From positions 5,546-69,545 of the forward strand of contig JBBPIP010000013.1 of the NCBI GenBank assembly GCA_038040265.1: a stretch of DNA of 64,000 nucleotides, read 5' to 3'. Shown here piece by piece: positions 59,743-62,366 of this stretch. Source of the stretch: Chloroflexota bacterium. Lineage in GTDB: Bacteria > Chloroflexota > Limnocylindria > P2-11E. A program made the translations under genes and the position numbers. The notes below the pieces were generated by a model that did no database searches, was not told the origin of the DNA, and saw only the letters and a program-made list of their open reading frames with translations. How positions within the stretch are numbered: the first letter of the stretch is position 1; the number at the start of each line of letters is the position of its first letter.

Positions 59743-61380
59743 GTGACCGGGCGCGACAAGTTCATCGTTGTCGCCCTCATCGGGCTCATGGTCGCGGCAA
59801 GCGTCGCGGCGATCGCAGCAGACCAGAACCCCTCGGGTGGTGACCCTGCCTACGGGGGCACCTATGTAGAGGGCGTCGCCGGCGTCCCCCAGTACCTCAA
59901 CCCCGTCATCGCCGCGACCGACGTTGATGAGGATGTCACGCGCCTGGCGTTCAGCGGGCTGACCCGAACCGACCAGACCGGAGCGATCGTCCCCGATCTC
60001 GCGTCGTCGTTCCGTACCGAGAGCAACGGGCGCATCTGGACGTTCGACATTCGCGAGGACGCGAACTGGCACGACGGCAATCCCGTCACGGCGGACGACG
60101 TCGTGTTCACCGTCAAGCTTCTTCAAGATCGGGGCTACGTCGGGCCCTACAGCGACGCCTTCCGCGGCGTCAGCGTCGAACGTGTCGCGCTTCGGACGGT
60201 GCGGTTCACGCTGCCCGATGTCTACGGTCCGTTCGCCGCCAGCACCACCGTTCCGCTGCTTCCATCGCACCTCCTGGGGAACGTGCCGTACGCCGAGCTC
60301 TCGCGACAACCGTTCAACGTCAGTCCCGTCGGCACCGGGCCGTTCCGGGTCGCCGATGTCGACGGGCGGCAGATCGTGCTCTTACGGAACGACGACTTCT
60401 ATCGCACCCGCCCGGCGCGCGACAGGCCCTATCTCGACAAAGTCATCCTTCGCTTCTATCCCGATCCTTCGGAGGCGCTGCTCGCGTTGTCTCGCGGCGA
60501 GATCGACGGCGTCGGAGGCCTCTCGAGCCAGGATGCCGAGCGCGCTCGCTCCCTCAAGAGCGCCGCGTTGTACAGCCTTCCGACCGACAACTTCGTGTCC
60601 CTTTTCCTGAACGTTCGTCCCGAGAAAATCGTCTTCCGCGACCGTGCGGTCCGGCAGGCGATCGCGACCGCGATCGACCGCGGGCGCGTATTGCAGCTGG
60701 CGGCGGACGGACGTGGGACCGTGGCGGATGAATTCGTGCCCTCCAGCTCGTGGGCCTACGTGAAGGATGTCACGCGCTACTCGTATTCCGTCGAAGACGC
60801 GACGGCCCTCCTCGACTCCGCCGACTGGAAGGACCACGACGGTGATGGCATTCGTGACAAGGGCGGGCAGAAGCTGGCGTTCACGATTTCGACGTCGGAT
60901 GAGCCGGCGCGGACCGCGGCCGCGACCGAGATCCAGCGCGGTCTGAACGCCGTGGGAATGAGCGTGACGGTGAAGTCGATGCCCTTCGGTCAGCTCGTCG
61001 ACAGCGTGGCACGACAGCGCGCGTTTGATGCACTGCTCGTCGAGATCGCCGTGTCGGGAGACCCTGATCCGTACACGTTCTTCCATTCGACGGAGGTGAA
61101 CGACCCCGGCCACAACTTCTCAGGATTCTCGACGCTGCCTATCGACCGCAATCTCGAGGCGGCGCGGCGGACGTTCGCCGAGCGCGAACGCCGCGATCTG
61201 TACGCGCCGGTATTCCAGGCGATCTCCCGTGAGGTCCCAGTCGTGTTCCTGTACTTCAGCGACTACCTCTACGCGCAGAGCCGCCAGGCCCAGGGACTGC
61301 GCATCGCGCCGCTAACTGACCCGCGCGAGCGTTTTTGGAACGTCGAAGACTGGTATGTGAGAACACAGCCCAAGCGCTGA
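59743..61380 (+). CDS. Peptide/nickel ABC substrate-binding protein (family 5), no partner permeases in window
   Basis: LNPV, 'FSGLTR...VPDLA', WHDGNPVTADDVVFT, 'PVGTGPF', 'VRQAIATAIDR', DPDP; N-terminal TM without a lipobox Cys. Confidence 0.92.
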   Translation: MTGRDKFIVVALIGLMVAASVAAIAADQNPSGGDPAYGGTYVEGVAGVPQYLNPVIAATDVDEDVTRLAFSGLTRTDQTGAIVPDLASSFRTESNGRIWTFDIREDANWHDGNPVTADDVVFTVKLLQDRGYVGPYSDAFRGVSVERVALRTVRFTLPDVYGPFAASTTVPLLPSHLLGNVPYAELSRQPFNVSPVGTGPFRVADVDGRQIVLLRNDDFYRTRPARDRPYLDKVILRFYPDPSEALLALSRGEIDGVGGLSSQDAERARSLKSAALYSLPTDNFVSLFLNVRPEKIVFRDRAVRQAIATAIDRGRVLQLAADGRGTVADEFVPSSSWAYVKDVTRYSYSVEDATALLDSADWKDHDGDGIRDKGGQKLAFTISTSDEPARTAAATEIQRGLNAVGMSVTVKSMPFGQLVDSVARQRAFDALLVEIAVSGDPDPYTFFHSTEVNDPGHNFSGFSTLPIDRNLEAARRTFAERERRDLYAPVFQAISREVPVVFLYFSDYLYAQSRQAQGLRIAPLTDPRERFWNVEDWYVRTQPKR

Positions 61381-61385
61381 TGCGT

Positions 61386-61440
61386 CTGTCGTCAAAATTG
61401 ACGACAGCTTTCGACGTCTTGTCGTCACTTTTGACGACAG
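61386..61440. repeat. Two tandem 22-bp palindromes TGTCGTCA-N4-TGACGACA (33-bp period)
   Basis: CTGTCGTCAAAATTGACGACAG (61386-61407) and TTGTCGTCACTTTTGACGACAG (61419-61440). Confidence 0.9.
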
Positions 61441-61494
61441 GTTTCGCACCCCTGTCACCTTCCCACGGCGTCGTGTTCATGCGTAGATACACAG

Positions 61495-62301
61495 ATGGGC
61501 AAAGGGTGGGCGAAGGGACTTACCGCGGCAACGGATCCTCGCATTGCAAGAGCCGCCGCGGCGCATCGCGGGCTGATCTACCAGCGCCTGACACCCTTCG
61601 AGGAATGCCGCTGGCCGATCGCAGGGCGTACGACGCTCCCCCTGGCCTGGTCCGACGAAATGGCCTACATCGTCGGGTTGACGGCCACGGACGGTTGCCT
61701 CTTCACGGGTAGGCGGAAAATCAATTTCAAGTCGGCCGACCGGCAGCTCGTCGAGACGTACCTCTCGGTTTTGGGCAGAACGAATCGCGTGAAACAGGCG
61801 CGCACCAGAAAAGATGGCGTCGTGTACTTCACCGAGTTCAGCGACGCGAGTTTGTACGAGTGGTTCCGGTCAACTGGGCTCACGCCGCGCAAGAGCCTTA
61901 CCTTGGGAGCCATCGACGTGCCGGACTCGTACGTGCCATCGCTAGCTCGCGGGCTGATGGACGGCGACGGGAGCATTCAGAATTTCGTGCACGCGCCGAC
62001 GCGCGAAAGGTATCCCGACTATCGCTACGAGCGCCTCTGGGTCTCTTTCAATTCAGCGAGCAAGACGCACATCGAGTGGCTTCGCGCTCGGCTTCGCAGT
62101 ATCGCCAAAGGGGACGGCTATCTACATGTCGCACATCGCGATGGACGTCATGACTTCTACACCCTCAGGTATGGAAAAGCGTGCGCGATCGAACTTCTAA
62201 ATCAGTTCTACGCCGACGCCAGTTCCCCTCGCCTGCTTCGGAAGTGGCGCCTTTGGGATGACTATGTTGCCCGCAGTCTCAGTGCGGAAGGGGGGATTTG
62301 A
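61495..62301 (+). CDS. Free-standing double-motif LAGLIDADG homing endonuclease with NUMOD3-like N-terminus
   Basis: Motifs AYIVGLTATDGCL and LARGLMDGDGSI; GLTPRKSLT; N-terminal WAKGLTAATDPRI; more A/T-ending codons than flanking genes; last 19 nt overlap tRNA-Leu antisense. Confidence 0.88.
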   Translation: MGKGWAKGLTAATDPRIARAAAAHRGLIYQRLTPFEECRWPIAGRTTLPLAWSDEMAYIVGLTATDGCLFTGRRKINFKSADRQLVETYLSVLGRTNRVKQARTRKDGVVYFTEFSDASLYEWFRSTGLTPRKSLTLGAIDVPDSYVPSLARGLMDGDGSIQNFVHAPTRERYPDYRYERLWVSFNSASKTHIEWLRARLRSIAKGDGYLHVAHRDGRHDFYTLRYGKACAIELLNQFYADASSPRLLRKWRLWDDYVARSLSAEGGI

Positions 62302-62366
62302 ACCCCCAAGCCCTTGCGGGCAATAGGCCCTGAACCTATCGCGTCTGCCGGTTCCGCCACTTCCGC
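62283..62366 (-). tRNA. tRNA-Leu (anticodon CAG)
   Basis: GCGGAAG/CTTCCGC acceptor stem, ATAGG-TTCAGGG-CCTAT anticodon arm, variable arm GCCCGCAAGGGC, GGGGGTTCAAATCCCCC T-arm; CCA not encoded; TAGAAT -10 at 62383-62378. Confidence 0.97.

What the first reader, a model, noticed from the sequence alone, without database searches (positions are those of the whole stretch)
61386..61460. Tandem 22-bp palindromes immediately upstream of the LAGLIDADG gene
Two copies of TGTCGTCA-N4-TGACGACA start 5 bp after the SBP stop, 33 bp apart (about three helical turns, same DNA face). The arms are conserved but the spacers differ (AAAT, CTTT), and a partial half-site CTGTCAC lies at 61452. That pattern fits binding sites for a dimeric protein better than a simple duplication. 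Options: (a) autorepression operators for the endonuclease, as I-TevI represses its own promoter; (b) the end of a mobile unit; (c) twin terminators, each followed by only three T, shielding a toxic gene from read-through.
Basis: partly seen in the sequence, partly recalled or inferred. Interest (0 to 1): 0.65.

Follow-up and report, generated by a model that had tools for sequence, protein, structure and literature searches.

The report
Shared operator: endonuclease and DNA-uptake genes
The two palindromes are real and are most likely binding sites for a host regulator protein placed at a fixed distance in front of the endonuclease gene's promoter; the same lineage-specific site sits at the same distance in front of the cell's DNA-uptake operon (comEA-comEC), so a selfish nuclease gene appears to be switched together with DNA uptake.

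Summary
TGTCGTCA-N4-TGACGACA occurs at 61387-61406 and 61420-61439, 33 bp apart, and no shuffle gave two copies. The genome (Chloroflexota, Ca. Limnocylindria MAG) has only one more full copy, upstream of comEA-comEC-holA, plus half-sites upstream of a second LAGLIDADG paralog.

The palindromes belong to the endonuclease cassette, not to the SBP gene. Two relatives with an empty SBP/tRNA-Leu site lack them.

They lie at fixed distances from the start codon, 65.5 and 98.5 nt, upstream of a -35/-10 pair that predicts a leaderless mRNA. The comEA palindrome is centred 65-67 nt before its start codon in 19 congeners and in 5 other lineages.

The half-site sequence changes between lineages, but the LAGLIDADG and comEA sites of one genome change together (permutation p = 5e-5). 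The motif follows the host, not the endonuclease tree. It also stays perfect at comEA in three of the four genomes with no detectable LAGLIDADG gene.

Best reading: an operator for a dimeric host transcription factor that co-regulates homing-endonuclease cassettes and the DNA-uptake operon. Autorepression and twin terminators are disfavoured. The factor is unidentified and no transcript data could be obtained.

The parts
61386..61407 (.). Distal operator palindrome CTGTCGTCA-AAAT-TGACGACAG (9-4-9), centre 98.5 nt before the LAGLIDADG start codon
   Evidence: A distal copy at -98/-99 is also present in G008 and G017 (degenerate in G021), and with different half-sites in L079.
61420..61439 (.). 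Proximal operator palindrome TGTCGTCA-CTTT-TGACGACA (8-4-8), centre 65.5 nt before the start codon
   Evidence: In the congeners measured that carry the gene here, the proximal copy is centred at -65/-66 (sequences). The exception is G014, where the start codon is uncertain and the centre measures about -76. The geometry matches the comEA site.
61452..61458 (.). Degenerate third half-site CTGTCAC abutting the -35 element. The paralog cassette has a full CCGTCGTCAC here.
   Evidence: comparison with C13:72660-72730.
61460..61489 (+). Putative promoter: -35-like TTCCCA (61460-61465), 18-nt spacer, -10-like TAGATA (61484-61489). The ATG lies 5 nt further on, which predicts a leaderless mRNA.
   Evidence: Inference from sequence. 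The block GTGCGTAGATGC plus 5-6 nt plus the start codon is conserved in most LAGLIDADG cassettes. The cTTGnCACG type of -35 is general in this genome. There is no Shine-Dalgarno sequence. No transcript data are available.
61495..62301 (+). Two-motif LAGLIDADG endonuclease gene (268 aa) with a NUMOD3-like N-terminal motif. Its last 20 nt overlap the tRNA gene.
   Evidence: Pfam LAGLIDADG_3. Invariant D66 and near-invariant D156/D158. PDB I-Tsp061I (2dch) by sequence, E 4.7e-10, and by fold, E 2.7e-10.
62282..62366 (-). tRNA-Leu(CAG), convergent with the endonuclease gene; right-hand boundary of the cassette
   Evidence: empty-site comparison.
59743..61380 (+). Family-5 solute-binding protein gene; left-hand neighbour, not functionally tied to the palindromes
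   Evidence: Pfam SBP_bac_5. Orthologs in G003 and G001 are followed by neither palindrome nor endonuclease.

Best explanation
The palindromes are DNA operators for a homodimeric, sequence-specific DNA-binding protein encoded by the host. This protein has not been identified, and a tetrahelical-HTH response regulator of the ComA/NarL kind is only a guess.

The operators sit upstream of the -35 element of the endonuclease gene's own promoter. Their centres lie about 65 and 98 nt before the start codon, which is probably also the transcription start. They are therefore roughly three helical turns apart.

The same operator, at the same distance, precedes the comEA-comEC-holA operon. Half-sites of the same kind also precede the other LAGLIDADG paralogs of the genome. 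The factor therefore co-regulates the tRNA-Leu-linked homing-endonuclease cassettes with the DNA-uptake operon. The position suggests class-I-type activation, or cooperative binding of two dimers.

Shown here: the sites, their rarity, their linkage to the cassette, the fixed spacing, the co-variation with comEA, and their independence from the endonuclease phylogeny.

Inferred: that a protein binds them, that it is host-encoded, the sign of regulation, and the leaderless start.
For: 1. Rarity. There are only 3 full sites in 2.68 Mb. All intergenic mixed-orientation half-site clusters lie at LAGLIDADG-1, LAGLIDADG-2 and comEA. The same picture holds in the 92%-complete congener G014, where the only hits with A/T-rich spacers are at those kinds of loci (partly checked).

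2. Conservation. 19 of 21 congeners carry the exact palindrome, at the two syntenic loci. The arms are invariant, while the 4-nt spacer varies and flips (AAAT, CTTT, TTTT, AAAA, GAAA).

3. Linkage to the cassette. G003 and G001 have the SBP and tRNA-Leu genes but neither the endonuclease nor the palindrome. G011 has an internal deletion of the ORF and keeps the palindrome with one mismatch.

4. Fixed geometry. In the window the centres are 65.5 and 98.5 nt before the start codon. In L079 the half-sites differ (CGTCGCAC-GAAY-GTGCGACG) but the centres are at -66 and -99. At comEA the centre is 65-67 nt before the start codon in 19 congeners and in 5 lineages with other half-sites, while the linker sequence is not conserved.

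5. Co-variation. In 16 genomes, the region upstream of LAGLIDADG and the DUF6941/comEA intergenic region of the same genome share lineage-specific motifs. These are TGACGAC, GTCGCAT-GAAC-GTGCGAC, GTCACAC, GGGACA, GGATGACATCC and GGCCGAACGGCC, or no motif at either locus. The diagonal of the shared-7-mer matrix sums to 101 (about 6 per genome) against 2.6 per off-diagonal cell (about 41 expected for 16 pairs); permutation p = 5e-5.

6. The motif follows the host. Cassettes of this genus with the TGACGAC motif fall into 4 LAGLIDADG clades. Two of these clades are sister to clades of other genera that use other motifs.

7. The comEA site is perfect in G003, G011 and G019 and present with two mismatches in G024. 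None of these four genomes has a detectable LAGLIDADG gene.

8. At the paralog cassette the half-sites lie in a divergent intergenic region, where no upstream gene needs a terminator.
Against: - No binding protein has been identified, and no transcript, TSS or Term-seq data exist.
- At both main loci the palindrome starts within a few nt of an upstream stop codon on the same strand and can fold as a stable hairpin, so an RNA role is not excluded.
- The four 'LAGLIDADG-less' genomes are only 66-80% complete.
- The putative comEA -10 hexamer (ACCCTC/AACGTC) is poor, so the promoter assignment there is weak.
- The 7-mer test does not fully correct for the relatedness of lineages.
- Similarity between the two loci sometimes extends about 10-20 nt beyond the palindrome. 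This could also reflect gene conversion.
Confidence: 0.6

Rival explanations
1. Autoregulation: the LAGLIDADG protein itself, or its NUMOD3-like N-terminus, binds the palindromes to control its own gene, as I-TevI does. It has also come to bind the comEA promoter.
For: - The 9-4-9 = 22 bp geometry with an A/T-rich central 4 bp matches the footprint of LAGLIDADG enzymes (my knowledge of I-CreI-type targets).
- The sites travel with the cassette.
- The half-site sequence evolves fast, as expected for a selfish element's own specificity.
- No other DNA-binding gene lies at the three loci, apart from an uncharacterised Zn-ribbon gene.
Against: - The protein is a single-chain two-domain enzyme, and such enzymes normally read asymmetric sites.
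- Four LAGLIDADG clades that are only 46-60% identical share the motif within one genus, while closer orthologs in other genera use other motifs.
- The comEA site is perfect in three genomes and near-perfect in a fourth, none with a detectable LAGLIDADG gene.
- The sites lie upstream of the promoter rather than over it.
Confidence: 0.13
2. RNA hairpins: twin intrinsic terminators or 3'-end stabilisers for the upstream genes (SBP, DUF6941), insulating the downstream gene. Alternatively, protein-bound attenuator hairpins in a 5' leader.
For: - The palindromes begin 5 nt after the SBP stop and overlap the DUF6941 stop.
- The predicted hairpins are stable; the region folds at -44.2 kcal/mol, z = -2.45.
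- In G022 and G001 one arm pairs through a G-U wobble on the + strand.
Against: - There is no U-tract (CUUUCG, GUUUCG), and the terminator scan does not call these hairpins.
- SBP orthologs at empty sites have no such hairpin.
- The distance to the upstream stop codon varies (5-32 nt), whereas the distance to the downstream start codon is fixed.
- Identical, co-varying sequence at unrelated loci is not needed for termination.
- Half-sites occur in a divergent intergenic region.
- The four independent single-arm mismatches at this locus are C-A on the + strand.
Confidence: 0.12
3. Target-site or gene-conversion relic: the palindrome is the cleavage site of the endonuclease, or a recombination site. 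Repeated break repair between copies homogenises the LAGLIDADG and comEA upstream regions.
For: - Similarity between the two loci can extend beyond the palindrome. For example, CAGCATTGGCGCG is shared by locus A of G015/G002 and by locus B.
- The 22-bp dyad resembles a meganuclease site.
Against: - Two to four perfect sites persist in genomes with intact, catalytically complete enzymes.
- No endonuclease gene is ever found at comEA in any lineage.
- Fixed promoter-relative spacing is unexplained by this model.
- The family's constant partner is tRNA-Leu, which is the more likely target.
Confidence: 0.05

Closest known systems
ComA boxes of Bacillus subtilis (tetrahelical HTH, NarL/LuxR-type response regulator), PMC4797271
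   Same: - Inverted repeat of short recognition elements with a 4-nt spacer.
- Located upstream of the RNA polymerase site (type I position).
- Extra degenerate half-sites next to the -35 element.
- A small regulon tied to the competence/quorum response.
- Mobile-element genes (ICEBs1 rapI) wired to the same host regulator.
   Different: - The half-site sequence is unrelated (TGTCGTCA against TTGCGG), and the arms are 8-9 nt rather than 6.
- The regulator here is unidentified.
- The direct target here is comEA-comEC itself.
- The phylum is Chloroflexota.
- The resemblance concerns architecture only.
I-TevI autorepression operator (phage T4 td intron endonuclease)
   Same: A homing-endonuclease gene with a protein-binding site in its own regulatory region.
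   Different: As I recall it, I-TevI binds an operator that overlaps its late promoter and resembles its homing site. Here the sites lie upstream of the -35 element, are perfect dyads, recur at a host operon, and do not follow the endonuclease lineage.
LexA- or PafBC-wired tRNA-Leu-linked LAGLIDADG genes
   Same: The same endonuclease family and the same tRNA-Leu linkage. The general theme is also shared: the cassette carries a host regulator's motif.
   Different: This organism's LexA box is TGAACATCCGTTCG, not the palindrome. The partner regulon here is the DNA-uptake operon, not DNA repair.
Rho-independent terminators
   Same: A perfect hairpin directly after a stop codon.
   Different: There is no U-tract. 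The sequence is conserved and shared between loci. It is absent from orthologous gene ends that lack the cassette. The spacing is constrained towards the downstream promoter.

Membership tests
Operator for a homodimeric transcription factor | Dyad symmetry with fixed spacer length; arms conserved, spacer free | tested here: met
   The form is 8/9-4-8/9 in 19 of 21 congeners. The spacers are AAAT, CTTT, ATTT, TTTT, AAAA, GAAA and GAAT.
Operator for a homodimeric transcription factor | Fixed position relative to the regulated promoter or start, independent of the flanking sequence | tested here: met
   Centres lie at -65/-66 and -98/-99 at LAGLIDADG cassettes, and at -65 to -67 at comEA in 19 + 5 genomes. 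The linker sequence is not conserved.
Operator for a homodimeric transcription factor | Recurrence at other promoters of the genome (a regulon) | tested here: met
   The sites are comEA-comEC-holA and the second LAGLIDADG paralog. No other intergenic clusters exist.
Operator for a homodimeric transcription factor | A cognate protein binds the site | not testable with these tools
   No candidate was identified. DUF6941 and the Zn-ribbon neighbour are too conserved to explain the motif turnover.
ComA/NarL-type (tetrahelical HTH) binding site | Bound by a NarL/LuxR-family response regulator | not tested
   Only the architecture resembles PMC4797271.
Intrinsic terminator | G+C-rich stem followed by a U-run | tested here: not met
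   The stem is 50% G+C in a 67% G+C genome, and only 3 U follow it. The scan does not call either palindrome.
Intrinsic terminator | Belongs to the 3' end of the upstream gene in relatives | tested here: not met
   The SBP genes of G003 and G001 have no such hairpin.
Intrinsic terminator | Structure kept through compensatory or wobble changes on the transcribed strand | tested here: inconclusive
   There are two G-U cases on the + strand (G022, G001) against four C-A cases on the + strand at locus A. Symmetric A-T to C-G changes (G024) fit both models.
I-TevI-like autorepression | Operator overlaps the endonuclease gene's own promoter | tested here: not met
   The sites end 20 nt upstream of the putative -35 element. 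The promoter itself is inferred.
I-TevI-like autorepression | Site specificity follows the endonuclease | tested here: not met
   The tree needs 4 changes for the genus motif, and sister clades use other motifs. The comEA site is kept in genomes without the gene.
LexA (SOS) box | Matches the box upstream of this organism's lexA | tested here: not met
   The lexA upstream region carries TGAACATCCGTTCG between TTGACA and the -10 element.
Terminal inverted repeat of a mobile element | A matching repeat at the other end of the unit | tested here: not met
   There are only two matches in the window, both at the 5' end. The right boundary is the 3' end of the tRNA gene.
LAGLIDADG homing endonuclease (the downstream gene) | Two LAGLIDADG helices with acidic residues; alpha-beta-beta-alpha-beta-beta-alpha fold | tested here: met
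   D66 and D156/D158 are conserved. The model has pLDDT 82.6. The best PDB match is I-Tsp061I.
LAGLIDADG homing endonuclease (the downstream gene) | Presence/absence polymorphism at a fixed site | tested here: met
   Empty sites occur in G003 and G001, a deletion in G011, and pseudogenes in G018, G006 and G017.
LAGLIDADG homing endonuclease (the downstream gene) | Site-specific cleavage | not testable with these tools
   None.

The most novel reading that the evidence does not exclude
Homing-endonuclease cassettes of Limnocylindria have captured the operator of the host's DNA-uptake (comEA-comEC) promoter, and keep re-matching it as it drifts. The nuclease would then be made only when the cell imports DNA. 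That is the one moment in a bacterium's life when endonuclease-plus and endonuclease-minus alleles meet. The timing would let the element drive into incoming DNA, or defend itself against being replaced by it.
Probability: 0.25. Interest if true: 0.8.

Novelty: new variant of a known kind. Interest (0 to 1): 0.6.

Why it matters
Free-standing homing endonucleases in bacterial chromosomes are poorly understood. In particular, it is unclear when they are expressed and how they meet an empty allele.

A host operator shared with comEA-comEC would give a concrete and testable answer: expression timed to DNA uptake. It would also be a first handle on competence regulation in an abundant, uncultured class of soil Chloroflexota.

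The data further offer a natural experiment in operator turnover. About eight different half-site versions are seen, and each is matched between a host operon and a selfish cassette.

Tried and rejected
- Rfam search of both loci: only the tRNA was found.
- Terminator/promoter consensus scan: no call on the palindromes.
- LexA box: rejected, because the organism's own box differs.
- DUF6941 (the gene ending at the comEA palindrome) as the binder: rejected, because its sequence is nearly invariant across lineages whose motifs differ.
- Zn-ribbon protein divergent from the paralog cassette: no Pfam or NCBIfam family. All listed homologs are at least 83% identical and are named hypothetical where a name is given. 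This is uninformative.
- The shared cTTCNCACG element as a special regulon mark: rejected, because it is the general -35 type of this genome (100 occurrences).
- Pattern search with 3 mismatches: swamped by coding GAC/GTC repeats.
- Two other half-site pairs (C4:47020, C11:38818): both lie inside long ORFs, so they are treated as chance.
- Literature searches found no description of tRNA-Leu-linked bacterial LAGLIDADG genes, nor of a homing endonuclease linked to comEA.

Full report
**Observation.** The window shows the SBP stop codon at 61378-61380. The distal palindrome CTGTCGTCA-AAAT-TGACGACAG lies at 61386-61407, the proximal palindrome TGTCGTCA-CTTT-TGACGACA at 61420-61439, and a degenerate half-site CTGTCAC at 61452-61458. 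A search allowing two mismatches finds only these two sites in 64 kb. The expectation is 0.03, and none of 100 shuffles gives two. The duplicated unit is 27 nt long with a 33-bp period.

**Genome context.** The window is C13:5546-69545 of a 2.68-Mb, 67% G+C, 37-contig assembly. Record titles of close relatives identify it as Chloroflexota, class Candidatus Limnocylindria, from soil MAGs.

The full palindrome occurs only once more, at C2:25901. There it lies between a DUF6941 gene, which follows leuS, and comEA. An extra half-site overlaps the DUF6941 stop codon. comEA is followed by comEC (Competence plus metallo-beta-lactamase domains) and by holA.

Mixed-orientation clusters of the 7-mer half-site occur in intergenic DNA at only three places:
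- the window site;
- the comEA site;
- upstream of a second, frameshifted LAGLIDADG paralog at C13:71669-72672, just beyond the window. This paralog is adjacent to and co-directional with tRNA-Leu(GAG). Its upstream 75 nt are homologous to 61428-61495.

**Conservation.** The exact palindrome is present in 19 of 21 genomes of the genus and in none of the 19 more distant genomes searched. Every hit lies at one of two syntenic loci:
- secG-SBP-[palindrome]-LAGLIDADG-tRNA-Leu(CAG)-DAO;
- leuS-DUF6941-[palindrome]-comEA.

The arms are invariant. The four central bases vary and even flip orientation. The tandem arrangement is not universal. G000, G008 and G017 have two copies, G021 has a degenerate distal copy, G014 has a partial duplication, and the others have one copy.

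**The palindromes belong to the endonuclease cassette.** I fetched the SBP locus from congeners that lacked a LAGLIDADG hit.
- G003 has 55 nt between the SBP stop codon and the 3' end of the tRNA gene, with no palindrome and no endonuclease.
- G001 likewise has neither, and its tRNA gene is inverted.
- G011 has an internal deletion that joins the promoter region to the last roughly 20 codons of the ORF. It keeps the palindrome with one arm mismatch.

That criterion is not met. The palindromes are the first bases of the present/absent segment.

**Position relative to the promoter.** Most LAGLIDADG cassettes share the block GTGCGTAGATGC, followed 5-6 nt later by the start codon, with no Shine-Dalgarno sequence. 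About 18 nt upstream lies a cTTCNCACG element, which is the general -35 type in this genome. I infer a -35 at 61460-61465, a -10 at 61484-61489, and a leaderless mRNA starting at about 61495.

The palindrome centres then lie 65.5 and 98.5 nt upstream. The same -65/-66 (and -98/-99) positions hold in the congeners measured, except G014, where the start codon is uncertain. They also hold in L079, a different lineage whose half-sites are CGTCGCAC-GAAY-GTGCGACG.

At comEA the dyad centre is 65-67 nt before the start codon in 19 congeners. It is 65-67 nt in five further lineages with other half-sites, and 54 nt (one helical turn less) in a sixth. The linker sequence between the dyad and the promoter is not conserved. 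By contrast, the distance to the upstream stop codon varies from 0 to 32 nt. Selection therefore acts on the geometry towards the downstream promoter.

**Co-variation between loci.** Outside the genus the half-site changes, but the LAGLIDADG upstream region and the DUF6941/comEA spacer of one genome carry the same version:

| Genome(s) | Shared motif version |
|---|---|
| G022 | GTCGYC-CGAAA-GGCGAC |
| G025/G026 | GGATGACATCC repeats |
| G046 | GTCGCAT-GAAC-GTGCGAC |
| G042 | GTCGCAT-GAAC-GTGTGAC |
| G047/G050 | GTCACAC-GAAC-GTGTGAC |
| G044 | GTCAC...GTGAC |
| G043 | GGGACA half-sites |
| G057, G051, G052 | GGCC-GAAY-GGCC, placed next to the -35 |
| G023, G054 | no dyad at either locus |

I made the prediction before fetching the second set of comEA spacers, and it held.

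A shared-7-mer matrix for 16 genomes has a diagonal sum of 101 (about 6 per genome). Off-diagonal cells average 2.6, so about 41 would be expected for the 16 pairs. The permutation p is 5e-5. This test is only partly corrected for the relatedness of the lineages.

**Who binds?**

*Not LexA.* The lexA gene of this genome is preceded by TGAACATCCGTTCG.

*Probably not the endonuclease.* The protein is a genuine single-chain two-motif LAGLIDADG enzyme. Its acidic residues are conserved. The model has pLDDT 82.6, and the best match by both sequence and fold is I-Tsp061I. Three results count against autoregulation:
- A maximum-likelihood tree puts the cassettes of this genus, which all share the TGACGAC half-site, into four clades. 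The tRNA-Leu(GAG) clade is sister to a cassette using GTCGCAT (support 100/98). The tRNA-Leu(CAA) clade is sister to cassettes using GGCC (93/92).
- At the window's locus some congeners carry a type only 52% identical to the window's protein, with the same palindrome.
- The comEA dyad is perfect in G003, G011 and G019, and present with two changed positions in G024. None of these four has a detectable LAGLIDADG gene, although they are only 66-80% complete.

*Not the neighbouring genes.* DUF6941 and a conserved Zn-ribbon gene divergent from the paralog are too invariant to explain the motif turnover.

I therefore favour an unidentified host factor.

**Closest analogue.** The architecture resembles the ComA boxes of B. 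subtilis. Those are an inverted repeat of recognition elements with a 4-nt spacer, located upstream of the polymerase site. They come with extra degenerate half-sites near the -35 element, act by type I activation, and have targets that include genes of the mobile element ICEBs1 (PMC4797271). This is a resemblance of design, not a demonstrated membership.

**Rivals.**
- *Terminator.* The hairpins are stable and abut stop codons. However, they lack U-tracts, are not called by the scan, are missing at empty sites, and also occur in a divergent intergenic region.
- *Cleavage target or gene conversion.* This would explain similarity that extends beyond the dyad in some genomes. It does not explain the fixed spacing, or the stable coexistence of the sites with intact enzymes.

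**Limits.** The promoter, the leaderless start and the direction of regulation are inferences. The regulator is unknown. The literature searches found no description of this link. Earlier notes of this scan report LexA- or PafBC-type wiring of the same endonuclease family in Actinomycetota. That fits the general theme of cassettes borrowing host switches, but I did not verify those notes.

Noticed in passing
window 61495-62366; loci L072-L151: The LAGLIDADG family is almost always next to a tRNA-Leu gene. In 114 of 125 tblastn hits the gene lies within 150 nt of one (anticodons CAG, GAG, TAG, CAA), with the ORF's 3' end towards the tRNA. This also holds in Saccharibacteria, Omnitrophota and Methylomirabilota relatives. 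Both orientations were tallied, but my strand parse of the ARAGORN output looked inconsistent, so the orientation split is unverified.
   Followed up: partly
G000 C13:71669-72672 (about 2-3 kb beyond the window end), minus strand: A second LAGLIDADG paralog, 71% identical over residues 1-174 and then frameshifted. It is immediately upstream of tRNA-Leu(GAG). It is divergent from a conserved 110-aa Zn-ribbon gene (CPRC...CREC) that has no Pfam or NCBIfam family.
   Followed up: partly
L170 (G011), L172 (G003), L173 (G001): Natural allelic series at the SBP/tRNA-Leu(CAG) site. G003 has an empty site. G001 has an empty site with the tRNA gene inverted. G011 has an internal deletion that leaves the promoter and the last roughly 20 codons of the endonuclease ORF.
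   Followed up: yes
locus A in G005, G012, G009, G007 compared with G000, G021, G015 and others: Two LAGLIDADG types, only about 52% identical and with different N-termini (MGKGWAKGLTAATDPR... against MRKVGKQRAKRY...), occupy the same chromosomal slot in different congeners. This suggests replacement of one cassette by another.
   Followed up: partly
G000 C2:~72000-72050, minus strand: lexA is preceded by TTGACA - AGTGAACATCCGTTCGG - TTAACC. This is a classic GAAC-N4-GTTC LexA box sitting between the -35 and -10 elements.
   Followed up: partly
G000 C2:25416-25892 and orthologs: The DUF6941 protein (about 135 aa) is wedged between leuS and comEA in every Limnocylindria lineage checked, and its N-terminal half is nearly invariant. 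Its last codons and stop codon are conserved at the nucleotile level and overlap the distal half-site.
   Followed up: partly
L162, L164-L166, L094, L121, L132-L141: In another Limnocylindria lineage the shared LAGLIDADG/comEA motif is GGCC-GAAY-GGCC(C), directly abutting the -35 element.
   Followed up: no
G000 C2:25930-25975: The conserved elements of the comEA spacer (CTATGCAC and GCTCAC) can also be read on the minus strand as TTGAGC-18 nt-TAGATG. That would be a promoter-like pair pointing into the palindrome and could give a short antisense RNA.
   Followed up: no
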